Positions 8,889 through 56,686 of a DNA stretch of 64,000 bases are shown here, in pieces. Location of the stretch: IMG/VR virus record IMGVR_UViG_3300024518_006178, positions 12,837 to 76,836 of that record; one strand, written 5' to 3'. The stretch's first letter is position 1. The number at the start of each line of letters is the position of its first letter. Position numbers and translations under genes: made by a program. The notes under the pieces are model-generated. The model worked only from the letters and a program-made list of their open reading frames with translations, had not been told where the DNA came from and did no database searches. This DNA is from a virus.

Positions 8889-9245
8889 TCATTTTTGGAC
8901 TTTGACCTCCATGCCCATCTCGACGCTAAGGTCATGGGCGGCAGCCTTGAGGAGGTTCTCCATGGCCATATATAGCGGGTTACTATTTTCAGCGCTAGCA
9001 GTAATTTCATCTTTTTCCTCTCTCTCCACGGGCTGCCCCTTTTTGGACGTTGCGAGCTCGCCAAGCGCCTCCTGTACCGCATGTTCGAAGAGCTCCCTGG
9101 GCATCATGGGCTCCAGGTTTATGGGCTGAGTGTGGACGTTGCGGGGGGCTATATCCCCCGCGCTGTTTTTTCTCATCCAATGCCCCTTGATGCGCACCCG
9201 GCCCTCGCGGAGCGTGACCTCGATGATTTCAAACCATACTTCCAT
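8889..9245 (-). CDS. Hypothetical protein
   Basis: AAGGAG RBS. Confidence 0.6.
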   Translation of the reverse strand: MEVWFEIIEVTLREGRVRIKGHWMRKNSAGDIAPRNVHTQPINLEPMMPRELFEHAVQEALGELATSKKGQPVEREEKDEITASAENSNPLYMAMENLLKAAAHDLSVEMGMEVKVQK

Positions 9246-9248
9246 GGC

Positions 9249-10214
9249 CTACTCCTTTTTTCTGTAGATTGTGCCTGACCTCCAGCTGGGCCAGGCGAAC
9301 GCGATGTGCTTGAAGTCATTCTCGTCGTTGAATCGGTCGGTGATTCTATCCCCAAGCTCCTCACGCCAGCGTGAACCATCATTGTTTGTGATGTAGATGC
9401 TGGACTTCTGGTTGTCTATGCGCCCATGGATTATGTACGAGAGCTTCTCGAATTCCCAGGCCGACCCGCTTTGTAGACCCACTTCGTCGACCACGAGTAT
9501 CGGGACCTCGGTGAGAAGCTTCAGGCGGTTGGTCTCGGCCAGCGCGTCATTGCCGCCGTAGCAGGCCTTGATGCTCAAGAACATCTGGGTGGCGTTCACC
9601 ATGAGCAGGTCGCGCGGCAGGTGCCGGTGGATGATCCCCAGCAGGATCATGCAGGCCGTCATGGTTTTACCGTTGCCGGGCTGTCCGGTGAAGACGAGGG
9701 ACTGACCGGACCCGTCCTCCCAGTTTTCAACCCAGTGCTTGGCAAATTTGACCAGGCGCTTCATTTTGTCCCAGTGCTCGGGAACGTGGTTCTTCAGGTG
9801 CGCGGCACCCGTATTTTTGGAATCCGTGACGAACTTGTCGAAGGTCATCCCTCTGTACTTCGCCGGGATTCCCCGGTCAATGGTCAGGTCATCGATTTTC
9901 CGTTGCCGGGATCGATCACTGGCTCTCTGCCTGGCGTTGTCACGCTCGTTGTCCCGACAGACACTACAGGGGTAGAAGCCCCAATACCTATTCTGGGTCT
10001 CAACGTCCACGCGTACCCGGGGCTCTATAGGGCTGCCGCAGTCCGTACATGTTTTGGGCTCCGGCTTATCCTTCGGCGGCACGATCTTAGGCATCGCCTT
10101 CGCCAAGGCTGACTTCATCGAGAGCGGACCTTGGGGCTTCCGCTGAGGTGTAGGAGTCGTAGTCGAAGTTTCTGGTTGGTCCCTTGGGCCCTTGCTTGCT
10201 CCGTCCGTTGGCAT
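9249..10214 (-). CDS. DnaC/IstB-like AAA+ helicase loader
   Basis: N-terminal CxxC..CxxC; Walker A GQPGNGKT; Walker B LVVDEVG; ITN; DRITDRF; W.SWR. Confidence 0.85.
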   Translation of the reverse strand: MPTDGASKGPRDQPETSTTTPTPQRKPQGPLSMKSALAKAMPKIVPPKDKPEPKTCTDCGSPIEPRVRVDVETQNRYWGFYPCSVCRDNERDNARQRASDRSRQRKIDDLTIDRGIPAKYRGMTFDKFVTDSKNTGAAHLKNHVPEHWDKMKRLVKFAKHWVENWEDGSGQSLVFTGQPGNGKTMTACMILLGIIHRHLPRDLLMVNATQMFLSIKACYGGNDALAETNRLKLLTEVPILVVDEVGLQSGSAWEFEKLSYIIHGRIDNQKSSIYITNNDGSRWREELGDRITDRFNDENDFKHIAFAWPSWRSGTIYRKKE

Positions 10215-44555: not shown

Positions 44556-45164
44556 ATGAGCCTAGCCATCGAGTGGACCGTTGTGGAGGGCGCGTTCAGC
44601 TACACTGTTCAGCGCTCTCCAGCTGGCGGAAACAGTTTCGTAGATATAGCTACGGATGAGTCGGGGCCGGTGTATATAGATACAACGAACCCCAGTGACT
44701 TCACGTTGCTATATCAGGTCATCGCCATAGACTCGAAGGGCGATGAGCTTGGATCCAATCCGACCACGCCGCTCACCATCTATGAGGTGGATGAGACGAC
44801 GTTGTGCTGCCTGTCTGGTAGGCTTGTCGATGCCACGGGGCGACCCCTGGATGACGCCGAGGTGCGCATCTATGAGCGTCCTGGGGACGAAAAGTTCTAT
44901 CAGGACCTGCGGACAAACATCGGTGACGATGCTCATCAGTTCTCGGATGCGGATGATCTTATTGAGGCCTCCTGGGAGCGGGAGGTCCAGACGGATGGCC
45001 AGGGCCGATTCCAGATCTACCTGCTGCGCAACAAGCTGTTCGTCGTGTTCGAGCCAAGGACGAAGCTAAAGCTGTGGTTCATGGTCCCGGACCAGGTCGC
45101 TGTCGGTCTGCACGAGATCGAGGGCACATTCGGATACCGGATCAGGATACACAATCCGTTCTAA
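44556..45164 (+). CDS. Virion-associated protein with FN3-like and transthyretin-like beta-sandwich
   Basis: W..VEGA.SY.VQR; LSGRLVDATGRPL...TDGQGRF. Confidence 0.5.
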   Translation: MSLAIEWTVVEGAFSYTVQRSPAGGNSFVDIATDESGPVYIDTTNPSDFTLLYQVIAIDSKGDELGSNPTTPLTIYEVDETTLCCLSGRLVDATGRPLDDAEVRIYERPGDEKFYQDLRTNIGDDAHQFSDADDLIEASWEREVQTDGQGRFQIYLLRNKLFVVFEPRTKLKLWFMVPDQVAVGLHEIEGTFGYRIRIHNPF

Positions 45165-45174
45165 GGGTTAGAGA

Positions 45175-46521
45175 ATGCCTACACCGACTGGCGTAACGAT
45201 GACGATCAACACGGGCGACGAGGCCACAAACGACCTCGACGTGACCCTGAGCATCGCCGCCACAGGCGCGGATGAGATGCGCTTCTCGAACAACGGCGGC
45301 TTTAGCTGGTCGCCGTTCGAGGCGTACGCCACATCCAAAGCCTGGAACATGTCCGACTTCGATGGCTTGGCCAGCGAGGGCATTAAGACGGTCCTCATGG
45401 AGGTCCGGGATCTTTTTGATGACGAACGAGCCCAGGTAACGGACTTCATCCTCTTCGACGTGCCCGTCCCCAGGATCGTTTTTGATGCGCTAACACCGCC
45501 GTTTCAGAGGTCGGACACCAATATAGTCGAAATACCCTACGCGGGATTCGAGGACTCCCTGGCGGCTGCTGACGCCGTGGCTCTTCTTGGTGCAGAGATT
45601 GATACCAGCGGGCTATTTACTGGGGGTGAATTAGACCTTCTGGAGCTCCCTGGCGACTCCCTGAATGACGGAAGGGTGGGCCTGCTCTTCTCAAATGCGG
45701 GAGAGAGCCTGGTCTTTGTGGCGGATCTCCTCGGAACATTTGGCATGGAGATCGCCAGCGCTGCAACACGTGTCCGCCTGAAGCCCCAGTTCGGGTCGAA
45801 AACCGGCGACTGGGCTGTGTCCCCGGCATTTACCATTCAGATACAGGATCCTCCTGTCACTGAGGAGCTGGGCCGGAAGACGATTCCGGGGCGCGCTATC
45901 ACGCTCGTGGCCTATTTCCGGAACGCCCTCAATGAGCTTGAGGACCCCACGGTTGGCCCGACCCTGGAGGAGGTTTTGGACTCGACGGACACCGATCAGC
46001 TCGGTGGGTCTGTTCCAATGGTGTCGACGGTTGCTGGGGTATGGACCTATAGCTTCACGCCAGCGGTCACCGACCCGGTGGGGCAATGGCGATACAGGGT
46101 CAGCTACGAGATGGGGGGACCCGTTGGCGCAGAAGAGCTGCTGGGATTCTTCATCGTAGAAACCCCCACCGTGGCTTCGTTCCCGCTTCAGAACGACACA
46201 TGCGTGCTGTACGGCGATCTGTTTCTGGGCGACGGAATGCCCTTCGAGAATGCGCTGGTCCAGGTCGCGCCCCACCATTTGTCGGATCCCGAGCTGGGGA
46301 ATACGACCAGCGTCTCTACCTCGCGCAGGGAAGTTCTTACGGATGCAAACGGACATTTCGAGATAGAGATGATCAGGAATACAGAGGTAGTGGTGCGAAT
46401 TCCCGATCTGGGCTACAAGCAGTTCGGTAAGATACCCGACGATGACGCCGCCGAGTACAAGACTATTACCACCCTGCTGCCGACCGGCACGCGAGATAAG
46501 TTCGGCAACAGGGTCCCATAG
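45175..46521 (+). CDS. Virion-associated Ig-like multi-domain protein
   Basis: INTGDEATN..VTL...EMRFSN; C-terminal domain resembles the preceding gene (TDANGHF). Confidence 0.5.
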   Translation: MPTPTGVTMTINTGDEATNDLDVTLSIAATGADEMRFSNNGGFSWSPFEAYATSKAWNMSDFDGLASEGIKTVLMEVRDLFDDERAQVTDFILFDVPVPRIVFDALTPPFQRSDTNIVEIPYAGFEDSLAAADAVALLGAEIDTSGLFTGGELDLLELPGDSLNDGRVGLLFSNAGESLVFVADLLGTFGMEIASAATRVRLKPQFGSKTGDWAVSPAFTIQIQDPPVTEELGRKTIPGRAITLVAYFRNALNELEDPTVGPTLEEVLDSTDTDQLGGSVPMVSTVAGVWTYSFTPAVTDPVGQWRYRVSYEMGGPVGAEELLGFFIVETPTVASFPLQNDTCVLYGDLFLGDGMPFENALVQVAPHHLSDPELGNTTSVSTSRREVLTDANGHFEIEMIRNTEVVVRIPDLGYKQFGKIPDDDAAEYKTITTLLPTGTRDKFGNRVP

Positions 46522-46523
46522 CT

Positions 46524-46555
46524 AAAAAAGGGGGGCGGCAATGCGCCCGCCCCCC
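46524..46555 (-). terminator. Intrinsic terminator at convergent junction (ends the retron operon)
   Basis: GGGGGGCGG/CCGCCCCCC stem with U6 on the minus strand. Confidence 0.65.
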
Positions 46556-46560
46556 GTGTA

Positions 46561-46749
46561 CTACCTCTTCTTCATTCGAGTCCCGGTCAGCGTCAGCACG
46601 CTGCTCGGCTCGAACATCATTGGGTCAGAGTCTCCTTGTTTGTTAGACCTGACCCTCTTCGCGATCTGCGCGCCGAAGTACAGCGCGGCACCTAAATACA
46701 TCGAAACCTCGATGCCAACATCGACCCAACTAACAGCAGTTCTCTTCAT
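46561..46749 (-). CDS. Small hydrophobic protein
   Basis: GGAGG RBS; hydrophobic stretch VGIEVSMYLGAALYFGAQI. Confidence 0.4.
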   Translation of the reverse strand: MKRTAVSWVDVGIEVSMYLGAALYFGAQIAKRVRSNKQGDSDPMMFEPSSVLTLTGTRMKKR

Positions 46750-46797
46750 GCTTCGCCCTCCAGGTTTTGACTCCCAACATGGGAGCTTTTTCCGGGG

Positions 46798-47136
46798 CTA
46801 CTCAGGAATCGTCATAGGGATACCATTTAGCGACTTTTCCTTAGGGTCGATAAGCAACGTTCGGTCAAGGACCTCTCCTTCTGATGGGTCACTGACCTTG
46901 CCAGACTTCTTCGAGCTTCCGGTCTTGATACGACGGTATAGCTTGTCGTCTTGAAGTTGCTCGATGAGGGCCTGCATCCTTTTCACCGTTTTCACGCAGG
47001 CTCGCCTTCTTGCAAGAGTGACCTCGTCCAGATCTTGAGTGCTCATCATCCGTGTGATCTGGACGTGCTGACGGGACGCCTCTTCCATCTGTTTTGTATA
47101 TACCCTAATTAGGATCTCTCTTTCTAGTTTTGTCAT
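46798..47136 (-). CDS. Hypothetical protein translationally coupled to the RT (candidate partner/effector)
   Basis: ATGA overlap with the RT stop; GGAGG RBS; basic and helical. Confidence 0.65.
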   Translation of the reverse strand: MTKLEREILIRVYTKQMEEASRQHVQITRMMSTQDLDEVTLARRRACVKTVKRMQALIEQLQDDKLYRRIKTGSSKKSGKVSDPSEGEVLDRTLLIDPKEKSLNGIPMTIPE

Positions 47137-48482
47137 ATCAGTAGGACCTCCCACTGCGTTTTCATTCTATTTGTTCTTTCCGGATTCACCATTTGGAAGA
47201 ACGCTAGGTTTCCGGACACCCATCCGGTGAATCTTTTGGGCGACACGCCCGCCTTTTTGGCCGCAGCCGGTATACCCAGTACCTTGGCGTTGTGGATCGC
47301 CGCTCGCACGCGACGGAACTTCTGGCGAGAGATATTGGGCTTCTCGTTTGCCACGAGACCTGTTACCCACTGTCTGCGCCCCCTTCTCATGATTTTGGTC
47401 TTTGCCTCATTCACCTGGAATCCCTCCTCTGCGACTATCCGTTTTACGACGCTGATGATGCCATCCACGGCACCGAGGACGTAATTAGGGTTGTCTGCCC
47501 TGCTGAACGAGAAGGTTATGTCGTCCGCGTATCTTGTGTACGTCCACTTTTGGCGGCCCAGGTAGCTCTGTAGCTTCTTGTCTAGGCGGTAGGTCACCAT
47601 GTTGGACAGACGTGGGCTGGTCGGTGCCCCCTGCGGCAGAGCGCCCTTCCATGTGGATATGGCCGTGATTATTCCGGCCACCTTAGTGTCGAGCCCCACG
47701 CTTTTTAGGGCTCCGAATACGCGCGGGAACCCAATCGAAGGGAAGAAGTCCTTTAGGTCTAGGCTGATCACAATGTCCTTACCCGAATGCCGCTCGGCAT
47801 TCTCGCGAATGCTAATGCCGGGCTCAAATCCCACGGATGCCGGATGGGCTGGGACCTGATAGAGGACGTGTTCGAGTATGGCTTTTTGCAGCCACTTGAG
47901 TGCGCTGTTCGGGGCGGTGATCTCTCGCTGCCCTGTTCCGTTCCTTTTCGGGACGAACCAACTGTGGTACAGCGTTGGGTCCTTGTGGGCTAGACGCCTC
48001 AGCATCCAGGTGATAAGTCGGTTCTTTCTGCCAACAGCCATGGCCAGATCGAACGACGTTTTTAAGTCCGAGATCTTTATGGTGGGAACCTTGACCGGCT
48101 GAGAGATGATGAAGCCATACTCCTCATTCATAGGAGCGCATCTCTTGCATACCGCCTTCTTCATGGGGTAGCAGATCTTGTAGTGCGTGCAGGCACCACA
48201 GATCGGGGACGCCAGCCAGTTCATGCAATTGCGACGATTGTTCTTGTTGTTGTGTTGCCAGCAGGCGAACCTATTGGCACAGGCTTCACATACGGAGGCG
48301 TGCGTCTTGCCGCCCAGGACAAACGGTGTGCTCCAGAATATCTTGCTGACAGTTACGGCACCTTCGTAGCTTTTTTCCGCAGGGGTTGTCTGCACGACCC
48401 CCTGGCTCGACTTCACTTTCCTCAAGAATACAGGGTGTCGCTGCCCTTTGTGATCAAGGAAATAGCAGTCATCTGGCTTCAT
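47133..48482 (-). CDS. Retron-type reverse transcriptase with N-terminal Cys-rich domain
   Basis: PKRNG..REI.AP, NAERH (region X), DLKDFFPSI, LPQGAPTSP.LSN, YTRYADD, QWVTGL (region Y); 9 Cys in aa 65-115. Confidence 0.93.
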   Translation of the reverse strand: MKPDDCYFLDHKGQRHPVFLRKVKSSQGVVQTTPAEKSYEGAVTVSKIFWSTPFVLGGKTHASVCEACANRFACWQHNNKNNRRNCMNWLASPICGACTHYKICYPMKKAVCKRCAPMNEEYGFIISQPVKVPTIKISDLKTSFDLAMAVGRKNRLITWMLRRLAHKDPTLYHSWFVPKRNGTGQREITAPNSALKWLQKAILEHVLYQVPAHPASVGFEPGISIRENAERHSGKDIVISLDLKDFFPSIGFPRVFGALKSVGLDTKVAGIITAISTWKGALPQGAPTSPRLSNMVTYRLDKKLQSYLGRQKWTYTRYADDITFSFSRADNPNYVLGAVDGIISVVKRIVAEEGFQVNEAKTKIMRRGRRQWVTGLVANEKPNISRQKFRRVRAAIHNAKVLGIPAAAKKAGVSPKRFTGWVSGNLAFFQMVNPERTNRMKTQWEVLLI

Positions 48483-48541
48483 ATCTTCAGCTCCTATCTT
48501 TAGTTTCCAATCGTCTAGGTTGCCAAATATCTCGAAATGGC

Positions 48542-48897
48542 TTTACTCGCAGAGTAAATGCATGAGAGATATTGTCGCAATCGTAAGTGTGTGTCGAGAA
48601 CGATAGATCCCAGACGGCGAGACGCCGTCACAATATACATAGGAGTTGCTAAGGCAGGCCTGCTTTACTTGGCGCGGCGGCTGGATGCGTCCGCCGCCTC
48701 GGCGGAAGCATCTCTTCCTAAAACCGACGCAATTAACACGTTGTGTTGTGGAGAAACAAAAGTCCACCAGGGGCGAAGCGCCCCTGTAATGTACCAGGCC
48801 CTTGCTTGACTATACGTGGTCCACCCAGATTGGACACGGCATCACAAAATACTCTTCCGTAACGGCGATGCGCCGTTGAAATACACCAAGGGCTTTA
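48542..48897 (-). repeat. Array of degenerate hairpin repeats between retron ncRNA and RT
   Basis: Five hairpins; three share GGCGAnnCGCC-N5-AATRYAC..AGG (plus strand, 48616, 48772, 48864). Confidence 0.6.
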
Positions 48898-49189
48898 TCT
48901 ACCGGCTGGCTGCTAACGGACCCCTTTGCTTTCATGGCTGGTCAGTAAAGATCCAGCTTTCTATGCGCGGACGCAAGGCGACCGTTGGACGTAGCGAGGA
49001 GCAACGAGGACAGCATGCGCAGCGTGATCCCGCAGTTGCCCACAGCGGTGTCCGTAGGTCGCCTGAGTACGCACAGCGGAAAGCGTTAAGGATCTTTCGA
49101 GACCTGCCCTGAGGGGTTTTGTCGTCTATTTCTCTGTGGAGGCCGAATCGGTCCCCGCCTGCCCGCTAATGGGCTACCCAGCCGGTAGA
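48898..49189 (-). ncRNA. Retron msr-msd RNA
   Basis: Perfect 12-bp a1/a2 inverted repeat TCTACCGGCTGG (48898-48909 / 49178-49189); two short msr hairpins; nested long msd hairpin 48920-49117. Confidence 0.8.
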
Positions 49190-49201
49190 ATGGAGGACGG
49201 C

Positions 49202-49936
49202 CTATTTCATTGGAATAAGCATCAGCCGCCACCCTAGTTTATCCGTCTTGACCCACCAATTGCGCGATTCTGTTTCGACGGCGCACTTTAGTGGAAGACT
49301 GCGGTGTACCGGGCAGTCTTCCATGTGTATCTCGAAGTACCCGTCCTTGTTCTTAAAGCACTTGTTTATGTGGCCCAATTCTCCATCAAGATCGACGCGT
49401 CTTCTTTTGCGGACGCATTCCCGTAGCTTGCTGCGAAAATCAGCAAAAGGCTTTAGTTTGAAGCGTGTCTTTACCTGGACCTGTATGGCATACGCATGTA
49501 TTGCCGTCTGCCATGCGGGGTAGTACGTCGACTGAGCGGAGGCGTCCCCTATGCAAATATCTTCGACGTTATAGTCGATCACACACGGATCCACCAGATA
49601 TTGCATCATATACGGCCTTCGCTCTTCGGCCAATGAGGGCACCCTTGCATCTACCCAGATCTCATCCCCGCTATTGGATTTATCTACCTGCACGATCTCT
49701 GGCAGTGCAATGGGCTTGGCGTCACAGAGCCATTCGATTGGCTCCGATAGACTCTTGCAAAGCGTCAGGGAAGTCATCGCTGAAAGCTTTGCGATGCTGA
49801 ACCCCTTCTCTTGGCCTTCCATGGCGTGCTCACAGGCACGAACCTTTTGAATGTCATGCGCATGCTTTGCGGATCTTAATTGCTCCCTCAATATCGCCAT
49901 GACTCGGGGGGCAATGTCTTGATATGTTGCTGTCAT
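49202..49936 (-). CDS. Hypothetical protein heading the putative retron operon
   Basis: AAGGAGG RBS; GGTATAAG motif upstream; stop ends 12 nt before the a1 arm. Confidence 0.65.
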   Translation of the reverse strand: MTATYQDIAPRVMAILREQLRSAKHAHDIQKVRACEHAMEGQEKGFSIAKLSAMTSLTLCKSLSEPIEWLCDAKPIALPEIVQVDKSNSGDEIWVDARVPSLAEERRPYMMQYLVDPCVIDYNVEDICIGDASAQSTYYPAWQTAIHAYAIQVQVKTRFKLKPFADFRSKLRECVRKRRRVDLDGELGHINKCFKNKDGYFEIHMEDCPVHRSLPLKCAVETESRNWWVKTDKLGWRLMLIPMK

Positions 49937-49964
49937 GAGCGTCCTCCTTCGTCGCTCTTATACC

Positions 49965-49994
49965 AAAAAAAGGGCGGGGGTCACCCCCGCCCTT
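49965..49994 (-). terminator. Intrinsic terminator abutting a GGTATAAG motif
   Basis: AAGGGCGGGGG/CCCCCGCCCTT stem, U7. Confidence 0.7.
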
Positions 49995-50002
49995 AAGTTT
50001 GG

Positions 50003-51103
50003 CTATTGAAGCCACTTGCCGAAGCGAGTAGTGTTGTAGATCATCTGTCCAGCCACGTTTTGCAGCTTTTCCTTGCGATCCATTGAAATCTCCGCCAGCG
50101 CGCCTGCCATCGCAATGGCCTGCACGGCGTCGAACAGAGTGACGGTCGTGGCCACGTTCCAGAACTCCTCGACCGCCCTTCGTTGGCCTATATCCAGGGC
50201 GAACGCATCGAAGACGCGCTCCCTGAACTCATCAGGGTCCAGGATCTTTACGTGTTGTGTGGCCTCGACTTCGTTGAGGCTCGCCTCCATCTTCTCGATG
50301 AGAAACTCGACGGAGGCCTTGAACTCCTTGTCGAAGTCCTCCTTCTTCTTCAGATGTGTGCGACGGAACCCCTGGTATCCCGTCATGATAACGCCAGTGC
50401 TGTCCGTGGCGTTCACGGTGAGTAGCTCGCATGCGAGGCTGCCGCAACCGATCTCGGAGTTCTTCAGTCTGATGGCCCCGTGAATCTCCTTGCCGCAGAT
50501 CGTGCGCACCATGTCCGGGTTGCGCAGATCCACGTACAAATTCGTCGGGGAATGGGTGAACGTGAGCGACCATCCGGGCTGGTTCGGCAGGTAGCTGGAC
50601 AGCAGATCCATGGCCTCAATGTGGTCGTAGACCTCGTAGCGACTGGTTAGGATCCCGCGAATCTTCTGTGCCCCAGAGTTCTTGTCGAACCGAACGAACC
50701 ACTTCTTGTTCTTGGGCATGTGGTTCAGCCAGTGATTGGCATGGGCGTCCAGGCGATCTCCGCCAAGACCTATGGTCTCCATGCAGCGCGTGAAGTACAT
50801 GAACGGGATTTTCAGCCGCTGACAGAACAACTGAACGGCATGCGGCTCCATGGGGAACATCGCCGTTACCCCATCCTTCTGATCTTCTGGGACATTGGGG
50901 TCATCCAGCATATTCAGAAGGCTGGACCGAATCAGGGTGGGATCCGGGTGCTGTCTGCTCAGGGTGAAGTCAAATACTTCGATCTCCTCGTCCGAGTAGA
51001 ACTCGGCGCGAGCGGCCAGGAGGTCCTTGAAGTCGGGTATCGTAATTGGTGTGTCATGGAGACTGTGTTGCTCCATCGTTTTGGTCGGTGTTGTTGTCAC
51101 CAT
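50003..51103 (-). CDS. DUF932-like phage protein
   Basis: A..LFCQRLKIP..Y, IRGILTSRY...D, LKNSEIGCGSL, RRTHL, TLFDAVQAI. Confidence 0.6.
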   Translation of the reverse strand: MVTTTPTKTMEQHSLHDTPITIPDFKDLLAARAEFYSDEEIEVFDFTLSRQHPDPTLIRSSLLNMLDDPNVPEDQKDGVTAMFPMEPHAVQLFCQRLKIPFMYFTRCMETIGLGGDRLDAHANHWLNHMPKNKKWFVRFDKNSGAQKIRGILTSRYEVYDHIEAMDLLSSYLPNQPGWSLTFTHSPTNLYVDLRNPDMVRTICGKEIHGAIRLKNSEIGCGSLACELLTVNATDSTGVIMTGYQGFRRTHLKKKEDFDKEFKASVEFLIEKMEASLNEVEATQHVKILDPDEFRERVFDAFALDIGQRRAVEEFWNVATTVTLFDAVQAIAMAGALAEISMDRKEKLQNVAGQMIYNTTRFGKWLQ

Positions 51104-51725
51104 CTGCCTCCTGAATGAACGCCTTCAGCTCCTCTGCCTTGGCGTTTGCCTTTTCGATCATTTCTACGCATGCCTCCATCGTAATGCACTTTGTCACTTC
51201 CTGCACGAAGTGGCTGCGCCAATGCTCCACCTCAAGCACGTCAAGGTGTTCTTTTTGCAGCCACAGGGCGGCGTCGATGAGGCTGCGCACATCTTCGGAC
51301 CAAGCTTCTTCGTCACTCCAGCTGTTTCTGCGCCTCCTTCTTCCCGGCCCGAATGTTTCCTCGGAGGTGGGGTTGTCCTCCAGGCTGTCATCGGAGTAGT
51401 CGTCCACGTCAACCGGCAGGACCTGCATCACTTTCGCGACAGCTATTGCCTTCTTCCGATGCTCTCCGGCTTCCACCAAGAGTCTTTTGGCCAGATCCTT
51501 CTTTGTGTGGGCGACGTTTATAATGCGCGCTAGACGATCTCTTACGTCCCTATAGTCCAGCTCTTCCTCTATGTGTTGCCCAACGACGTGCCTGCGGAGC
51601 TTCAACCGATTGTTAGCTATCTTGCGAACGCCATCGAACGCCTCCGCAGTCGCAGGCTGATAGGCATCTTCCATGAGCTTCACGCCAACGCGCTTGCCCT
51701 TTGCTCGCGTAGTTTTGTTTGACAT
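51054..51725 (-). CDS. Hypothetical protein
   Basis: GAGGA RBS; co-directional. Confidence 0.55.
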   Translation of the reverse strand: MSNKTTRAKGKRVGVKLMEDAYQPATAEAFDGVRKIANNRLKLRRHVVGQHIEEELDYRDVRDRLARIINVAHTKKDLAKRLLVEAGEHRKKAIAVAKVMQVLPVDVDDYSDDSLEDNPTSEETFGPGRRRRRNSWSDEEAWSEDVRSLIDAALWLQKEHLDVLEVEHWRSHFVQEVTKCITMEACVEMIEKANAKAEELKAFIQEADGDNNTDQNDGATQSP

Positions 51726-51727
51726 TT

Positions 51728-52030
51728 TTAGTCCTCGTCTGCGTCAATGGTCTCTGCGATTTCAAGCTGCCCCCGCAGGTACTCACAGTTCGTGCGTAAC
51801 CTGTCGACTTTGTCTTTGCTCTTCAGCTTCCAGTCGATCACGAAGTTGTGGATGCCCTGGCGCTGAATGACTGGGTGGGCGTGGCCCACCCAGTCTGGTT
51901 TGCCGAACTGTCCCTGTATTCTGTCGTACACTTCCAGAACCTTGAGGCAGATTAAGATCCTCCGCCTCCTGTCATGGTCGGTTACCAGCGGGCTTATCTT
52001 TGATCTTGCTCTAAACTTCTTCTTCTTCAT
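51728..52030 (-). CDS. Hypothetical protein
   Basis: GGAG RBS. Confidence 0.55.
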   Translation of the reverse strand: MKKKKFRARSKISPLVTDHDRRRRILICLKVLEVYDRIQGQFGKPDWVGHAHPVIQRQGIHNFVIDWKLKSKDKVDRLRTNCEYLRGQLEIAETIDADED

Positions 52031-52056
52031 TTTTCTCTCCGGTTACGCTTTTTTGG

Positions 52057-52788
52057 TTATTCCTCTATCATTGCGTCCATTGGGTCGGGCTGTGCGGATG
52101 GATCCGCATAGAACACGGTCTCTTGTGTTGGGGCGTCGGTGTCGATTGTCTCTACGTCTTGTGTCTCGGCATCGGTGTCGATCACTTCCGCACCCGTTAG
52201 AATTTCAAGAAGCTCAGCCGCCTCCGACGCGGTGGCCGTATGGCTGCTCACCTTGTCTTCGAGTTCACGCCGTCTCTTGTTGTTATTGACCTCAATCTTC
52301 TGAGGGTCGTCGTCAGGGGAGCAGTGCAGGAGGCGGTCCTCATGCAGCTCGTTCTCGACACCCGGCTCGTCGTCGAGACCCGGAAGCGGGCGCTTTATGA
52401 AATCCCTAACCTCCTGGTCCGCCTCGTCGGGTATGCTGGCCTCGTGTCCGCATCTGCGGCAGTCCTTGACCTTTCGTGTGTGAACGGCCTTGCAGGAGGG
52501 GCACTCCTTGAAGCCGTATTTCTCTGTGCGCTCCGCCAGGAGCTGAGTCGTGTTGGTTAGATCCGCAGCCGAGCGGGCCTGCTGCAAGGTCGTAACCTTG
52601 CTGAACAATGTGAAGAAGCAGTTCGCGCCGTCCCCCTCGATGGTGGCGCACGCTATCGTGTTTTGCAAGCTGACGAACGGCTTGCCAAGATGGTCTCGGC
52701 ACACCTCGTCGAGGGCGAAGTTATAGGCGTCCTGCCCGGTCCAGATGTGCTCCTTGCCCCTGGTATCCTTATACTTAACAACAGCCAT
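52057..52788 (-). CDS. Hypothetical zinc-ribbon protein with acidic repeat tail
   Basis: CPSC...CRRC; EVIDTDAETQ/ETIDTDAPTQ repeat; AGGAGG RBS. Confidence 0.6.
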   Translation of the reverse strand: MAVVKYKDTRGKEHIWTGQDAYNFALDEVCRDHLGKPFVSLQNTIACATIEGDGANCFFTLFSKVTTLQQARSAADLTNTTQLLAERTEKYGFKECPSCKAVHTRKVKDCRRCGHEASIPDEADQEVRDFIKRPLPGLDDEPGVENELHEDRLLHCSPDDDPQKIEVNNNKRRRELEDKVSSHTATASEAAELLEILTGAEVIDTDAETQDVETIDTDAPTQETVFYADPSAQPDPMDAMIEE

Positions 52789-52835
52789 ACCGGTCCTCCT
52801 AAGTAAGTGTCTCGAACACAGACTTATACCGTAAT

Positions 52836-53243
52836 TCAGTCTGTTTTGGTTTCAGGCGGGAAGCCGTCCTTCAGGATCGGCGCAACGAACTCATATATGT
52901 CCCATGCGCTGCCATCTATGGCTTCATCGTATTTGCCGTGGTTCTGAACGGCGTCCGCAAATTCAAACTCTTTGCACCCCGCCTCGATGCCGTCCACCTG
53001 CATGGAAACCTTGATCCACAGTTTATGCATGGTGCTCATGCGCTGCGGAGTATATACGTTCGGCGTGTCTTTGCAGGTTTCGAACAACCCGGAGAAGCGC
53101 GCGCGCCAGTCGGCCACAGATACGACAAGCCGCGTCATAGATTCGGTTGCCCACTCTATTTTATTCAAGTCCAGTAGCTTTCTCAGGCGCTCCACTATGG
53201 GCTTATGGAACTCGTTCATCACAAACTGGCTGTGATCCAGCAT
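52836..53243 (-). CDS. Hypothetical protein
   Basis: AGGAGAG RBS. Confidence 0.55.
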   Translation of the reverse strand: MLDHSQFVMNEFHKPIVERLRKLLDLNKIEWATESMTRLVVSVADWRARFSGLFETCKDTPNVYTPQRMSTMHKLWIKVSMQVDGIEAGCKEFEFADAVQNHGKYDEAIDGSAWDIYEFVAPILKDGFPPETKTD

Positions 53244-53254
53244 AAGTTCTCTCC

Positions 53255-53292
53255 TAAAAAAATAGGGGGGAGAGGCAAAGCCCCTCCCCCCT
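53255..53292 (-). terminator. Intrinsic terminator
   Basis: AGGGGGGAG/CTCCCCCCT stem with U-tract. Confidence 0.65.
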
Positions 53293-53309
53293 ATGGGTTT
53301 CTCATTTTG

Positions 53310-53885
53310 TTATTCTTCGTCGGGATCCAGATGCATGTCCTCTGGGAGCATGTCTGGAATCTCGGGCTTGTCCTCGTCCTCGTCTTCGTCGCCGTGCGCC
53401 TTGCGCCAGTACCTCTCCTCAAATATCCTTTCGGCGTTCGTTGTAGACTCCCCCGAGGCGGGTCCAACCTTGTCGTCGGAGCCTTCCTCCCGGAGTCGCA
53501 GGTCGACTTGCGGAATGTCGTCCTTGTCGATAAGCGCCTTGGGTGCTCCATCAGGCATATACGCTTCAACGTGCGTTATGATGCCAAGCTTTTTGTCTGT
53601 CACAACATGAAGCCCGGCGCACGAGAATAGGAGCTTTTCATCTTCAGGGTGCGCCTCTACCAGGGCTTCCTTCACCTGGTCCCAGGTGGACTCCTTCATC
53701 TTGTTCATCAGGCCCTTCTGCTTCTCGACGCGCTGAATCAATTCGATCACTTCGTTTTGCATGCGATCTATTTCTTCTGACTTCGCCTCCAGCATTGCGA
53801 AGTCGGACGCCATATCCTTAGGGAACGGCCAGGTCTTCACCGGTTTGGGTTTTTCCTCTTTGTCGCCGTCCTTGCCTTCTGACAT
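53310..53885 (-). CDS. Hypothetical protein (coiled coil, acidic tail)
   Basis: TAATG coupling. Confidence 0.6.
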   Translation of the reverse strand: MSEGKDGDKEEKPKPVKTWPFPKDMASDFAMLEAKSEEIDRMQNEVIELIQRVEKQKGLMNKMKESTWDQVKEALVEAHPEDEKLLFSCAGLHVVTDKKLGIITHVEAYMPDGAPKALIDKDDIPQVDLRLREEGSDDKVGPASGESTTNAERIFEERYWRKAHGDEDEDEDKPEIPDMLPEDMHLDPDEE

Positions 53886-54085
53886 TACTGCCCCTTTCGC
53901 TGCGTGGACTGAGGATCATTCGTATCCTCATAGTCTTGGATTGAGCGCTTGAGCGCGTTCAGCTCGATTTCATGAATCTTGGCCTGTTGGAGTTGGCCGT
54001 TCTTCTTGGCGGAGGCGACAGAATCGGCAAGCTCCTTAGCTTTGCGCCGCATCTTTGTCACCTCTTTGAGTTCTCTTTTAATCAT
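53885..54085 (-). CDS. Small coiled-coil protein
   Basis: Coupled ORF. Confidence 0.5.
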   Translation of the reverse strand: MIKRELKEVTKMRRKAKELADSVASAKKNGQLQQAKIHEIELNALKRSIQDYEDTNDPQSTQRKGQ

Positions 54086-54368
54086 TGTTTTCCTCTTGTT
54101 CTAGGAGTGAGCTTAGGCTGTCAGCCAGACGTGCCTGTTCTTTCGTGAGCCGCTGCCTGCGGCTTATGAGTTGTCGCACCTGTTTTTGCTGGCCATTCCT
54201 GAGCTTCCATTCCAGACGACGGATGCAAGCCTCAAGGGCCACCTTGTTATTCTGCATCTTCTCCCGAAGCTTGTCCACCATCTCGGTCGGATTCTTCGGC
54301 AGCAGATCCTTCAGGCTCGTCATCTGGCGAGTTCTTTCCCTCCTCTTCGGGCGAATCTTCTTCCCCAT
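54078..54368 (-). CDS. Small basic coiled-coil protein
   Basis: GGAG RBS; coupled ORF. Confidence 0.5.
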   Translation of the reverse strand: MGKKIRPKRRERTRQMTSLKDLLPKNPTEMVDKLREKMQNNKVALEACIRRLEWKLRNGQQKQVRQLISRRQRLTKEQARLADSLSSLLEQEENND

Positions 54369-54591
54369 CAGATGAAATCTCCAGTACTTTAATGTCGTAT
54401 GCCAGATCTTTGAGGTATTTTTCCTGCGTGCTTATCTCGTCCTTTAGCTCCTTGGCCCGGCCCTCCTTGCTGTGGCCAATAGCCAGCTCAAGGAGTCGTT
54501 TATTGTCGATAAGGTCCTTCTCTATGGTCTTGACCTCATCCCGCTTCAGCTCAAGCTGTCCGGATTCTTCTTGTGGCACCGTGGGAATCAT
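54247..54591 (-). CDS. Small coiled-coil protein
   Basis: ATGA overlap with the upstream gene. Confidence 0.5.
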   Translation of the reverse strand: MIPTVPQEESGQLELKRDEVKTIEKDLIDNKRLLELAIGHSKEGRAKELKDEISTQEKYLKDLAYDIKVLEISSDGEEDSPEEEGKNSPDDEPEGSAAEESDRDGGQASGEDAE

Positions 54592-54899
54592 GCTTCTTTC
54601 CCCCTGAGTTGCACCATTCGATCTATTTCATCCTCAAGTTCTGTCTCAGCCGCCGCCAACTTCTTCAACAGAACATTAATGACGGCGCTTTTGGCCAGGA
54701 TGCCTGAGCGCTTGAGGCGTACTCGTTCTTGGGCGAGAGACTCTTGCAGTTTGTCTCGTTCCCGCCGCTTTTTTTCGATGCTCCGGGCGAGCTTTACCTC
54801 GTTCATTAGCCCGGGGGCTACATGGACTTCGCCAGGCTGACGACCGTCGTCATGATCATCTTCAGAGCCAGGCTGGGTTCTATAGACTTTGCCTGCCAT
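54588..54899 (-). CDS. Small coiled-coil protein
   Basis: AAGGAGG RBS. Confidence 0.55.
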   Translation of the reverse strand: MAGKVYRTQPGSEDDHDDGRQPGEVHVAPGLMNEVKLARSIEKKRRERDKLQESLAQERVRLKRSGILAKSAVINVLLKKLAAAETELEDEIDRMVQLRGKEA

Positions 54900-54916
54900 G
54901 CCCCCTCCTTTTTAGT

Positions 54917-55192
54917 TGGCGTCAGGCGGGATTTTCACCCGCTCGGAGGATACCGCTATCCGCTAGCCTCACAGATGCGCTGCCCGTAATTATTCCAACG
55001 AACCCATCCTGGGCTCTGAGGCGGCTACTTTTCGTGCCGTTCTGACGCCGTTGGCCTAGGTGGCCCGCCAGGCGGGGCTCTTCAGCACCCCACCTAGCAG
55101 GCCAGCGTGCACCAGACCCAGTTGGTACACGCCTTTTCTCGGGCGAAGAGACCATAGCCGCATCCTTTCGGGTAGCGGACACCCCCTCGCCC
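54917..55192 (-). ncRNA. Candidate highly structured ncRNA (two pseudoknots, T-loop hairpin at 3' end)
   Basis: At least eight mutually compatible helices found by eye, a GAAA tetraloop and GCGGG-UGAAAAU-CCCGC; fills the whole intergenic space. Confidence 0.6.
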
Positions 55193-55198
55193 AAACCA

Positions 55199-56638
55199 TC
55201 ACATGCTTTCGAACAGAAACGAGGCAGCGCTGCCCTGTTTATCCTCGTCCATTATGTCCTTGGCATCCACGACTCCGCCATTACAAAACTTGTTCATGAC
55301 GCCGTGGTCGCCCTCGCTGCGGTAGTAGTACGGCTCGATCAGCACGCCGTAGCACGTCACCTCCATCTCGTCCCGCCAGGCGAGCCAGTTGCGGAGCCAT
55401 TTGTCCTCAACATCGCACTCGCCGTCAGTGATCATTATTATGTCCGCGCGAGGGTTTTCGTCAACCTTATCGGCGGCCATGTCCAGGGGGCGCTCGAAAT
55501 CGGTGCCACCCCCATAGAACCATTCGACGAAGTCCAGAACCTGTCCGGTCCCATACTTGCCATGGTCGAACTCGAAGCACTTGATGTTTGTGGAGTGTGA
55601 GAAGTGAATTCCCACGAATTTCCGCTTCTGGACGTTGCAGATCTCCAGCAGGCCTAGTGCCACAGCCTTTGACCATACCTCACGGTCGCCGGACATGGAT
55701 CCCGAATTGTCGATTGCGCACACAATTGGACCCTTGGTCTGCTTTTTGCGATCCCGCAGAGAGTACTGCAAGATTTCGCGACTCGCAATCCGCTTGAAGA
55801 GATCGATCTCCATCATTGGATCACACACGTTGAATAGCTCCTGGGGGAGCATTCTGTCGAGACGGTCTCCGACCTCGACGGAATAGACCTCTTCGTTGCC
55901 CTTGGAGATCTTGGTGCGCTGCGATGATAGCGCGAGATTCTTGAACCGGCCCACGAGCTTGGCCAGTTTGCGGAGAATTTGGCTGCGCCGAATCCTCTGC
56001 GCGAGAGCGACCTTCTCCTTGAATGGGAGCTTGTGGGCGATACCGGCGTCTGATCCCCAGCACGTCGTCGCCTGGTTCATGTCGTTCGCTTCCTGGGCCG
56101 CCTCTCGCATGGCGTCCTGCATCGCCCGCTGGAGCTTCTTCTCGTCCGGCGAGCGATCCTTCGGGTTATCCTTCTTGCCCCTCTTGGGCATCTTCTTCAC
56201 TTCAGGCAGGAAAGTTACGAGGTGATCGGTGAGCACCTCGGTCGCGATGGCCGCCCCGAACTCATCCAAAACAGTGTGAGCCCGCAGCTCCTTGTAGATG
56301 TTCTCGCCCAGCATGCGCCCGGCAATGTCATGGTTGGCTTCAAACCCAGGCTTCATTCGCCGGGCCTCGATCTGGTCCGGGGTGTACTTGTAGAGACCAT
56401 CAAAAACGTCCTGATGGAACTCCTGGAACGTGGGCAGCTTGGCTGCGTGTCGGTCTTGTTGGCTGGAGAGCTTTTCCGACTGCTCTTTGATCTCCCGGAA
56501 GACACGCTTGTCGAACTTGTCGCACCTGATAGCCTGTTCCTGGTCCCCAGCCTTTTTCTTGCGGCCCCGACCTCTCAGTCGAACACCATAGTCCTCGTCC
56601 GGCACCCGGCTGGGTGCACTACCTTCCACTTCTCCCAT
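55199..56638 (-). CDS. VWA domain protein (ViaA/CoxE-like MoxR partner)
   Basis: MIDAS DNSGSM, GGGTDF, IMITDG. Confidence 0.9.
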   Translation of the reverse strand: MGEVEGSAPSRVPDEDYGVRLRGRGRKKKAGDQEQAIRCDKFDKRVFREIKEQSEKLSSQQDRHAAKLPTFQEFHQDVFDGLYKYTPDQIEARRMKPGFEANHDIAGRMLGENIYKELRAHTVLDEFGAAIATEVLTDHLVTFLPEVKKMPKRGKKDNPKDRSPDEKKLQRAMQDAMREAAQEANDMNQATTCWGSDAGIAHKLPFKEKVALAQRIRRSQILRKLAKLVGRFKNLALSSQRTKISKGNEEVYSVEVGDRLDRMLPQELFNVCDPMMEIDLFKRIASREILQYSLRDRKKQTKGPIVCAIDNSGSMSGDREVWSKAVALGLLEICNVQKRKFVGIHFSHSTNIKCFEFDHGKYGTGQVLDFVEWFYGGGTDFERPLDMAADKVDENPRADIIMITDGECDVEDKWLRNWLAWRDEMEVTCYGVLIEPYYYRSEGDHGVMNKFCNGGVVDAKDIMDEDKQGSAASFLFESM

Positions 56639-56686
56639 GTCATCTCCTAACAAAAGTTGCCGTTGACGATCAGCTTATACCATAAA

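What the first reader, a model, noticed from the sequence alone, without database searches (positions are those of the whole stretch)
48138..48482. RT carries an N-terminal tandem CxxC-x5-C metal-binding domain
Seen: about 130 aa precede the RT core, with Cys at 65, 68, 74, 86, 95, 98, 104, 112 and 115 (CEACANRFAC, CGACTHYKIC, CKRC). Established: CxxC-x5-C is the spacing of [4Fe-4S] ligands in WhiB and Cas4/AddB proteins, and it also occurs in Zn sites. I do not recognise such a fusion among standard retron RTs. Inference: it may be a fused sensor/effector or an RNA-binding module for the hairpin array.
Basis: partly seen in the sequence, partly recalled or inferred. Interest (0 to 1): 0.7.

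Follow-up and report, generated by a model that had tools for sequence, protein, structure and literature searches.

The report
Phage retron enzyme with cysteine-cluster front domain
A reverse transcriptase kept by a lineage of large uncultured phages carries a previously undescribed front domain with eight never-changing cysteines that almost certainly hold two metal centres; its job (probably gripping RNA/DNA) is still untested.

Summary
The 449-aa ORF at 47133-48482 (-) is a retron-type reverse transcriptase (RT). Its core starts near residue 133, behind a 132-aa extension. All 10 Cys of the protein lie in residues 1-115.

In 14 homologues (37-60% identical), eight Cys are invariant, with spacing C-x2-C-x5-C-x10-22-C-x8-C-x2-C-x5-C-x7-C. 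C6 and C115 are not conserved. The two halves align in register, which suggests a tandem duplication.

Translation from M1 is supported. AGGAG lies 8 nt upstream, equivalent Shine-Dalgarno (SD) sites occur in two related phages, and residues before M107 are conserved.

The domain matches nothing in Pfam, PDB sequences, the ESM Atlas or 1.8 billion representative proteins outside its own small family. That family sits on 50-166 kb contigs; three are held as virus records. It is not homologous to the Cys-free N-extension of the nearest cellular RTs, which are true type XIII retron RTs.

AlphaFold could not model the Cys segment, so the metal (Zn or Fe-S) and the role remain inferred. I favour a non-catalytic, basic, two-metal nucleic-acid-docking module. 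It has no conserved His, Asp or Glu.

Earlier notes of this scan report similar Cys-rich phage RTs on other DNA. Verdict: a new variant of a known kind, of moderate interest.

The parts
47133..48482 (-). Whole RT gene (449 aa plus stop)
   Evidence: ORF list and translation. Pfam RVT_1 at 8.9e-26. Retron RT profiles at 1e-90 to 1e-60. Foldseek best hit is retron Ec86 RT 7v9u, E 5e-23.
48087..48482 (-). N-terminal extension, residues 1-132, specific to this phage RT family
   Evidence: Retron profiles and the hhalign comparison with type XIII RTs align only from about residue 119-136 onward. No Pfam, PDB or Atlas match.
48297..48482 (-). Basic, beta-rich sub-part, residues 1-62 (S46, K47, P53 invariant)
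   Evidence: The AF2 full-length model places six short strands in residues 7-61, with pLDDT about 55-75. Family identity is 36% and pI 7.9-11.0, above 9 in 13 of 14 members.
48147..48290 (-). Cys8 segment, residues 65-112: C-x2-C-x5-C-x11-C-x8-C-x2-C-x5-C-x7-C, two repeats of C-x2-C-x5-C-xn-C
   Evidence: All eight Cys are invariant in 14 sequences, and only the C3-C4 spacer varies, from 10 to 22. The halves align in register, P = 0.003. Net charge is +2 to +11.
47136..48086 (-). Retron-type RT core, residues 133-449 (NAERH 228-232, YADD 318-321, VTG 373-375)
   Evidence: These motifs are invariant in alignments A1 and A3. Structural match to retron RTs.
48491..48495 (-). Shine-Dalgarno AGGAG, 8 nt before the ATG at 48482
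   Evidence: Read from the sequence.
48483..49201 (-). 719-nt structured non-coding leader (candidate msr-msd bounded by a perfect 12-bp inverted repeat at 48898-48909 / 49178-49189, followed by small GC hairpins)
   Evidence: Fold z-score -3.66. The 12-bp long-range inverted repeat is observed once against 0.03 expected.
46798..47154 (-). Small helical ORF (118 aa from the GTG) overlapping the RT stop; positional counterparts exist in L001 and L002
   Evidence: ORF list. Weak alignment at 31% and 22% identity with the ORFs that overlap the RT stop in L001 and L002.

Best explanation
The N-terminal 132 residues are a genuine, translated domain specific to a small clade of retron-type reverse transcriptases. 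Those RTs are carried as a fixed-position gene by a lineage of large uncultured phages.

The core of the domain is a duplicated C-x2-C-x5-C-xn-C unit. I infer that its eight invariant cysteines hold two metal centres, most likely two tetrahedral Cys4 zinc sites, possibly cross-braced. These would fold an otherwise poorly conserved, basic, aromatic-rich 50-residue segment.

I further infer that the module is non-catalytic and acts as a docking surface. Most probably it binds nucleic acid: the long structured leader or template RNA next to the gene, or the nascent cDNA. That would place it at the entrance of the RT, much as Cys-rich fingers do in eukaryotic retroelement RTs.

Shown: the domain exists, is translated, is conserved, is duplicated, is restricted to this family, and is fused to an intact retron-like RT. 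Inferred: metal binding, the identity of the metal, and nucleic-acid docking.
For: - Eight Cys are invariant at fixed spacing in 14 sequences that are only 33% identical elsewhere in the segment.
- The two halves align in register: C65/95, C68/98, C74/104, C86/112.
- Strong SD sites lie before the long start in three phages, and an independent gene call of the long form exists (P0127).
- No His, Asp or Glu is invariant in the segment. The only other invariant or near-invariant residues are N70, R71, W89 and Y105.
- The segment is always net basic, +2 to +11, with pI 8.2-9.7 and 3-8 aromatic residues.
- The spacing CX2CX5CX7 followed by a fourth ligand equals the experimentally Zn-containing DnaI module CX2CX5CX7H (PMC1636449).
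- The RT core is intact and retron-like: NAxxH, YADD and VTG are invariant, and Ec86 RT is the best structural hit.
- The gene sits at the same genome position in three related phages. RT divergence (49% and 37%) is similar to that of its neighbours.
- Two of the three loci have long, strongly structured, repeat-bearing non-coding DNA directly upstream, with z-scores -3.7 and -11.
Against: - There is no structural model. AF2 gives pLDDT 31-44 for residues 63-112 with 14 sequences, and 40 for the domain alone.
- No homology to any known zinc finger or RNA-binding domain was found.
- CX2CX5C is at least as typical of [4Fe-4S] sites (PMC3439918).
- The third and fourth ligands of each half do not form a second CxxC knuckle, as they would in classical zinc ribbons.
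- The whole protein is basic, so the charge of the segment is weak evidence.
- The third locus (L002) has an ORF, a terminator and only about 220 nt upstream. Association with a long leader is therefore not universal.
- Binding was not tested.
Confidence: 0.45

Rival explanations
1. The eight cysteines ligate two [4Fe-4S] clusters. Each CX2CX5C triad would be completed by a remote fourth Cys, as in Dna2/AddB/Cas4, WhiB-like proteins, EndoIII/MutY and NUBP1, and possibly swapped between the halves as in 2x[4Fe-4S] ferredoxins. The clusters would act as a structural staple for nucleic-acid binding, or as a redox/iron/NO-sensitive switch on reverse transcription.
For: - CX2CX5C is a recurrent Fe-S signature in nucleic-acid enzymes (PMC3439918).
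- Three clustered ligands plus one distant ligand fit a cubane better than a classical zinc knuckle pair does.
- Eight Cys in about 50 residues equals the ligand density of clostridial ferredoxins (my own knowledge).
- C86-x8-C95-x2-C98-x5-C104 resembles the EndoIII C-x6-C-x2-C-x5-C loop (my own knowledge).
Against: - No profile similarity to WhiB, Cas4, EndoIII or ferredoxin families, even at E up to 10.
- No Pro or Gly follows the Cys residues, as is common in ferredoxin motifs.
- A Zn precedent with the same spacing exists (DnaI).
- Sequence alone cannot decide the metal.
Confidence: 0.3
2. The Cys8 module is a metal-stabilised protein-protein interaction domain. It would work like the Zn module of the DnaI N-domain, which binds the helicase. 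Possible partners are the small co-translated ORF downstream, another phage replication protein, a host factor, or further RT copies (oligomerisation).
For: - The DnaI CX2CX5CX7H Zn module mediates helicase binding (PMC1636449).
- A small helical ORF overlaps the RT stop in all three loci and is weakly conserved.
- Solved retron RTs work in assemblies with effectors (titles of hits).
Against: - No similarity to DnaI_N in Pfam.
- No co-variation test is possible with three loci.
- The basic, aromatic character points more towards nucleic acid.
Confidence: 0.15
3. The N-terminal domain is the retron effector itself, a fused toxic or enzymatic module, by analogy with the RT-Toprim, RT-TIR and RT-protease single-gene retrons.
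For: No recognisable effector is encoded nearby; there are no PADLOC hits for ten neighbours. Single-gene retrons with fused effectors exist (Mestre et al. 2020, PMC7736814).
Against: - Known fused effectors are C-terminal and are recognisable enzymes.
- This segment has only about 50-130 residues and no invariant His, Asp, Glu, Ser or Lys catalytic candidates apart from S46 and K47.
- The gene behaves as a vertically kept phage gene rather than a defence-island cargo.
Confidence: 0.05
4. Annotation artefact: translation really starts downstream (M107 or M118), and the Cys-rich stretch is untranslated leader.
For: One gene caller started the L002 homologue inside the domain (P0121, 396 aa).
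Against: - The open frame and invariant residues extend far upstream of M107 in 14 sequences.
- Strong SD sites lie at the long starts in three loci.
- Another caller gives the 461-aa form (P0127).
- The P0121 start would cut between the two conserved triads.
Confidence: 0.02

Closest known systems
Type XIII retron reverse transcriptases (RT clade 10 of Mestre et al. 2020; the myxobacterial Mx162/Mx65 kind, by my recollection)
   Same: This is the best-scoring RT profile (RT_XIII, 1e-90), and in the FastTree of RT cores the family forms a clade apart from the other RT hits, the sampled ones being type XIII. The retron motifs NAxxH, YADD and VTG are shared. Both have an N-terminal extension before the RT core.
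   Different: - True type XIII RTs score 1e-162, and their extension of 118-316 aa (mostly 150-250) has no Cys in most members.
- hhalign finds no homology before residue 119.
- The phage clade lacks the roughly 18-residue finger insertion.
- No WH-SWIM or HEAT/ARM partner genes are present.
- It is carried by phages, not inherited in bacterial chromosomes.
Retron Ec86 (Eco1) and Eco2/Ec67 RTs (solved structures 7v9u, 9lm3)
   Same: The RT core fold matches: Foldseek E 5e-23 and 2.6e-21, at about 30% identity.
   Different: Those RTs start about at the core (Ec86 RT is about 310-320 aa) or carry a C-terminal Toprim domain. Neither has an N-terminal Cys-cluster domain.
CX2CX5C [4Fe-4S] sites of Dna2/AddB/Cas4-type nucleases and WhiB-like proteins
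   Same: The ligand spacing C-x2-C-x5-C plus one remote Cys occurs, and it occurs twice here (PMC3439918).
   Different: There is no sequence-profile similarity. There is no nuclease domain for the cluster to staple. Two adjacent copies sit in 48 residues. The metal is unknown.
Zn-binding module of the Bacillus subtilis DnaI N-domain (CX2CX5CX7HX16C)
   Same: The second repeat has the spacing C-x2-C-x5-C-x7-C. DnaI shows that this spacing can bind Zn (PMC1636449).
   Different: No Pfam DnaI_N match. All ligands here are Cys. The unit is duplicated and fused to an RT.
Cys-rich nucleic-acid-binding modules of eukaryotic retroelement RTs (R2 N-terminal zinc finger, L1 ORF2p C-terminal Cys-rich domain, retroviral NC CCHC knuckles). 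This is an analogy from my own knowledge.
   Same: The architecture is similar: an RT joined to a small, basic, Cys-based metal module that holds RNA or DNA.
   Different: The spacing differs (CX2CX4HX4C in NC) and there is no His. No homology is detectable. Here the function is only inferred.

Membership tests
Retron-type reverse transcriptase | RT palm/finger motifs with YxDD | tested here: met
   Pfam RVT_1 at 8.9e-26, residues 177-372. YADD 318-321 is invariant.
Retron-type reverse transcriptase | Retron-specific NAxxH and VTG motifs | tested here: met
   N228, A229 and H232 are invariant, as is the T374-G375-L376-V377 stretch; V373 is nearly invariant.
Retron-type reverse transcriptase | Best profile and fold matches are retron RTs, not group II intron, DGR or Abi/UG RTs | tested here: met
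   PADLOC retron RT models score 1e-90 to 1e-49. NCBIfam St85, TIR and Ec67 retron models score about 1e-66 to 1e-69, against group II at 4e-15 and Drt2/3 at 1e-9. Foldseek top 17 hits are retron RTs.
Retron (whole system) | Adjacent msr-msd ncRNA bounded by inverted repeats, with a branching G | tested here: inconclusive
   The window has a perfect 12-bp inverted repeat enclosing 268 nt, followed by G, against 0.03 expected, and a structured leader. No such repeat of 9 bp or more occurs in L001 or L002. There is no Rfam retron hit.
Retron (whole system) | Production of msDNA | not testable with these tools
   Needs expression and nucleic-acid analysis.
Retron (whole system) | Associated effector gene or fused effector domain | tested here: not met
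   None of ten neighbouring ORFs hits PADLOC. Pfam and PHROGs give nothing effector-like. A small conserved downstream ORF of unknown function remains a candidate.
Type XIII retron | RT belongs to the RT_XIII clade | tested here: inconclusive
   RT_XIII is the best model, but at 1e-90 against 1e-162 for true members, and the runner-up is close at 4.5e-81. In the tree the family is a clade apart from the other RT hits and is not nested within them.
Type XIII retron | Linked WH-SWIM (cluster 114) and HEAT/ARM (cluster 216) genes | tested here: not met
   No PADLOC hits in the neighbours. The feature is defined in PMC7736814.
Type XIII retron | Homologous N-terminal extension | tested here: not met
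   hhalign of A3 against A4 aligns residues 119-449 only. Type XIII extensions have no Cys.
WhiB-like / Cas4-AddB-Dna2 Fe-S proteins | C-xn-C-x2-C-x5-C ligand pattern | tested here: met
   The pattern is present twice. It is a motif match only.
WhiB-like / Cas4-AddB-Dna2 Fe-S proteins | Sequence or profile homology to the family (Wbl fold or PD-(D/E)xK nuclease) | tested here: not met
   No Pfam hit for the N-domain at E up to 10. No PDB sequence hit.
WhiB-like / Cas4-AddB-Dna2 Fe-S proteins | Bound [4Fe-4S] cluster | not testable with these tools
   Needs anaerobic purification, UV-vis, EPR and metal analysis.
Classical zinc ribbon / CCHC zinc knuckle | Paired CxxC knuckles, or CX2CX4HX4C spacing | tested here: not met
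   The spacing is CX2CX5CX7-22C, with no His. The only possibility is a cross-brace between C65xxC68 and C95xxC98. No zinc-finger Pfam hit is better than E 6.5.

The most novel reading that the evidence does not exclude
The domain holds two [4Fe-4S] clusters. To my knowledge that would be the first iron-sulfur-containing reverse transcriptase. It would read or gate the unusual multi-unit structured RNA arrays that accompany these phage-core RTs, so that cDNA synthesis by a phage-owned, effector-less retron is switched by the redox or iron state of the infected cell.
Probability: 0.2. Interest if true: 0.8.

Novelty: new variant of a known kind. Interest (0 to 1): 0.55.

Why it matters
In the Mestre et al. 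classification, the domains fused to retron RTs are C-terminal (PMC7736814). An N-terminal, family-specific Cys8 metal module is outside that scheme.

The domain marks a clade of RTs that large phages keep at a fixed genome position. The RTs diverge at the same pace as their neighbours. That argues for a role in the phage's own life cycle rather than a borrowed host defence.

If the module docks the adjacent structured or arrayed RNAs, it would explain how these RTs choose templates, and it could be useful for retron-based DNA-writing tools. If it carries Fe-S clusters, it would extend the list of nucleic-acid enzymes with such clusters to reverse transcriptases.

The finding is directly testable by standard biochemistry.

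Tried and rejected
**Searches for relatives of the N-domain**
- Single-sequence search of residues 1-135 against 1.84 billion representatives found only its own family.
- A profile of three N-domains against 5.8 billion proteins found no stand-alone form among shorter or similar-length proteins. Among longer proteins it found only family RTs.
- Pfam at E up to 10, PDB sequences and the ESM Atlas gave only spurious hits: DOCK DHR-2, a designed Kelch protein, RING at E 6.5.

**Structure**
- AF2 of the N-domain alone (3 sequences) gave pLDDT 40. The full-length model (14 sequences) leaves residues 63-112 at pLDDT 31-44. No fold search of the domain was therefore meaningful.
- Foldseek against PDB and BFVD matched only the RT core.

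**Collections**
- A GenBank phage collection tblastn gave no record covering the N-domain.
- The N-domain profile in 800 sampled Myxococcota and Planctomycetota genomes gave one hit that is spurious, with stops and no Cys pattern.

It showed only a tRNA-like array and collagen-like coding repeats.
- Four literature searches on phage retron RTs with Cys or zinc domains found nothing relevant.

**Readings rejected**
- HNH or another nuclease: no invariant His, Asp or Glu.
- Group II intron or DGR RT: profile scores are too low.
- A downstream start codon.

Full report
**1. The observation**

The ORF at 47133-48482 on the minus strand encodes 449 residues. Cys residues lie at 6, 65, 68, 74, 86, 95, 98, 104, 112 and 115, and there are none in residues 116-449.

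Pfam places RVT_1 at residues 177-372. Full-length retron RT profiles begin to align at residues 133-136: RT-TIR_XII covers 133-437, and the Ec67 family model covers 136-438. About 132 residues therefore precede the RT core, as stated.

**2. Is the extension translated?**

On the coding strand the ATG at 48482 is preceded by AGGAG (48491-48495) with an 8-nt spacer. The two related phage loci have GGAGGAG plus 6 nt (L001) and AGGAG plus 5 nt (L002) before their long-form start codons.

One gene caller started the L002 homologue inside the domain (P0121, 396 aa). Another called the 461-aa form on a 166-kb contig (P0127).

Residues well upstream of M107 and M118 are invariant across the family, including S46, K47, P53 and the first Cys triad. 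The downstream-start refutation therefore fails.

**3. Conservation**

A search of 5.8 billion proteins found eleven full-length relatives at 47-60% identity that cover the N-terminus. IMG/VR added two loci. L001 lies on a 94-kb viral contig with 49% identity. L002 lies on a 163-kb viral contig with 37% identity.

In the 14-sequence alignment, C65, C68, C74, C86, C95, C98, C104 and C112 are invariant. The pattern is C-x2-C-x5-C-x(10-22)-C-x8-C-x2-C-x5-C-x7-C, and only the third spacer varies. C6 and C115 are not conserved, so 'CKRC' is incidental.

Excluding the eight Cys, the segment is only 33% identical within the family, against 56% for the RT core. This is the signature of a metal-ligand scaffold.

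A profile comparison of the two halves aligns them in register: C65/95, C68/98, C74/104, C86/112. Each third Cys is followed by an aromatic residue. P is 0.003, which is suggestive for so short a stretch. 'Tandem' is therefore apt: two copies of C-x2-C-x5-C-xn-C.

**4. Distribution**

- The N-domain alone (residues 1-135) found only its own family among 1.84 billion representatives.
- A three-sequence profile found only family RTs among longer proteins, and nothing among proteins of 68-237 residues. No stand-alone form or other fusion was detected.
- Pfam, PDB sequences and the ESM Atlas gave nothing meaningful.
- None of 50,697 GenBank phage records covers the domain.
- It was not found in 800 sampled Myxococcota and Planctomycetota genomes. 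The single hit was spurious.
- Family members sit on contigs of 50-166 kb. The window itself is part of a 76.8-kb IMG/VR virus record.

**5. What the RT is**

The core is a retron-type RT:
- NAERH (228-232), YADD (318-321) and VTG (373-375) are conserved.
- Retron profiles dominate.
- The AF2 model (pLDDT 76.7) matches retron Ec86 RT best, at E 5e-23, followed by Eco2, Eco7 and Ec78.

The nearest cellular relatives, at 36-45% identity on the core, come mainly from Myxococcota, Planctomycetota and similar phyla. The three tested are bona fide type XIII RTs, scoring RT_XIII at about 1e-160.

Nearly all of them also have an N-terminal extension of 118-316 residues, mostly 150-250. Most of these extensions contain no Cys. 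Profile-profile comparison aligns the two groups only from residue 119 onward.

In a FastTree of RT cores, the Cys8 RTs form one clade. Support is 0.86 without L002; L002 joins with weak support. The clade stands apart from the other 102 RT hits, the sampled ones being type XIII. The Cys8 domain is thus an innovation of the phage clade, not a diverged type XIII extension.

No WH-SWIM or HEAT/ARM partners or any PADLOC effector lie nearby (definitions from PMC7736814).

**6. Genomic setting**

The RT occupies the same position in the window, L001 and L002. A block of conserved early-strand genes lies upstream: the VWA protein, o135, o243, o223 and the 366-aa phrog_1362 protein. Non-coding DNA comes next, followed by the RT and a small ORF overlapping its stop. 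A convergent 448-aa structural-module gene closes the unit.

Neighbour identities (34-50% to L001) are similar to the RT's own 49%. The RT is therefore inherited with the phage rather than recently acquired.

Upstream of the RT:
- The window has a 719-nt structured leader (z -3.66). It contains a perfect 12-bp long-range inverted repeat enclosing 268 nt, observed once against 0.03 expected.
- L001 has 1.46 kb of non-coding DNA. Its RT-proximal 720 nt fold with z -11. It holds nine copies of a GGAAAGGTAGGC-headed unit that occur nowhere else in its 94-kb record.
- Small GGCG-loop-CGCC hairpins recur in both.
- L002 instead has an ORF, a terminator and about 220 nt.

Retron status in the strict sense (msr-msd, branching G, msDNA) is therefore plausible for the window but not shown to be conserved.

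**7. How the domain most likely works**

AF2 could not model residues 63-112: pLDDT was 31-44 with 14 sequences, and 40 for the domain alone. This is usual for small metal-dependent folds with shallow alignments. Residues 7-61 are predicted as short beta strands at modest confidence.

The reasoning below is therefore from sequence.
- (a) Eight invariant Cys in 48 residues, in a cytoplasmic phage protein, imply two four-ligand metal centres.
- (b) No His, Asp or Glu is invariant. The only other conserved residues are N70, R71, W89 and Y105, plus aromatic residues after the third Cys of each half. An enzymatic effector is therefore unlikely.
- (c) The segment is net basic in every member, at +2 to +11.
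- (d) Two of the three loci examined pair this domain with unusually long structured upstream RNA.

I therefore favour a non-catalytic docking module for RNA or DNA next to the RT, stabilised by two metal sites.

The metal is open. CX2CX5C is a classical Fe-S signature in Dna2/AddB-type enzymes (PMC3439918) and in several others. However, the B. subtilis DnaI N-domain binds Zn with CX2CX5CX7H, and the second repeat here is CX2CX5CX7C (PMC1636449). A cross-brace is also possible, in which the two CxxC knuckles (65/68 and 95/98) form one rubredoxin-like site and 74/86/104/112 form the other. I put Zn slightly ahead of Fe-S.

**8. Comparison and novelty**

The thing works like a retron RT with an added Cys-based nucleic-acid or partner-docking module. 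This is analogous to, but not homologous with, the zinc modules of eukaryotic retroelement RTs.

It is not a member of type XIII, because the partner genes and the N-extension homology were tested and not met. It cannot be filed with WhiB, Cas4 or DnaI, because only the motif matches.

Four literature searches found no description.

Earlier notes of this scan report the same kind of object on other DNA. e1-5742580 describes a phage retron-type RT with a Cys-rich front domain and a remote template array. e1-5996938 describes a phage-core retron-like RT near type XIII with Cys-cluster proteins. These notes are unverified, and I could not confirm that they concern this family.

I rate the finding a new variant of a known kind, with moderate interest.

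Noticed in passing
L001:8940-9805 (+), upstream of its RT: There are nine copies of a GGAAAGGTAGGC-headed unit, 53-93 nt apart (one gap of 337 nt), each followed by hairpins. The motif occurs nowhere else in the 94-kb viral record. The RT-proximal 720 nt of the region (9245-9964) folds with z -11. It looks like an array of msr-like units in front of a Cys8-type RT.
   Followed up: partly
window 48542-48897 and L001 8807-8826, 9484-9503, 9669-9688: Small hairpins of the form GGCG-(3-4 nt loop)-CGCC recur upstream of the RT in both phages. Examples are GGGGCGCTTCGCCCC in the window and GGCGTTTCGCC three times in L001. This is a shared RNA element, although the leaders have no alignable sequence.
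   Followed up: partly
window 48898-48909 / 49178-49189: A perfect 12-bp inverted repeat encloses 268 nt that fold into a long irregular hairpin. On the RNA strand the 5' arm is followed by GUAG. It is a candidate msr-msd. No counterpart of 9 bp or more exists in L001 or L002.
   Followed up: partly
window 44556-56653; L001; L002: The gene order around the RT is conserved in three phages: VWA protein, o135, o243, o223, 366-aa phrog_1362 protein, RT, and a convergent 448-aa protein. Identities are comparable to the RT's. The RT looks like a core gene of this phage lineage.
   Followed up: yes
window 46798-47154 (-); L001:11239-11523; L002:11205-11486: A small helical ORF of about 93-118 aa overlaps the RT stop codon in all three loci. 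It is weakly conserved (31% and 22% identity, with a DE.TL..RE.T.K.V core) and has no family match. It is a candidate accessory protein.
   Followed up: partly
L002:9902-11287 versus protein P0121: A public gene call for the 163-kb phage starts the RT 65 residues too late, inside the Cys8 domain and cutting off the first CxxCx5C triad. The long form has a strong SD site and is called on a sister contig (P0127).
   Followed up: yes
window 52057-52788 (-): This 243-aa ORF has a CPSC...x13...CRRC zinc-ribbon-like pair and an acidic tail. It is conserved in L001 (30% identity) and has no family match.
   Followed up: no
window 55199-56653 (-): This 484-aa protein has a VWA domain (Pfam 5.5e-07) and matches phrog_24053. 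It is conserved at 49% and 39% identity in L001 and L002.
   Followed up: no
G002 (record of L002) 84492-84705 and 120716-121917: There is a tRNA-like tandem array (period 75) and a long collagen-like 9/18/27-nt repeat tract in the 163-kb phage. TRF found no obvious retron-template array.
   Followed up: no
window 49957-50020 (-): A weak sub-threshold Rfam hit to suhB/mmgR (25.4 bits against a gathering threshold of 41) overlaps a strong terminator hairpin after the 366-aa gene. It is probably just the terminator.
   Followed up: no
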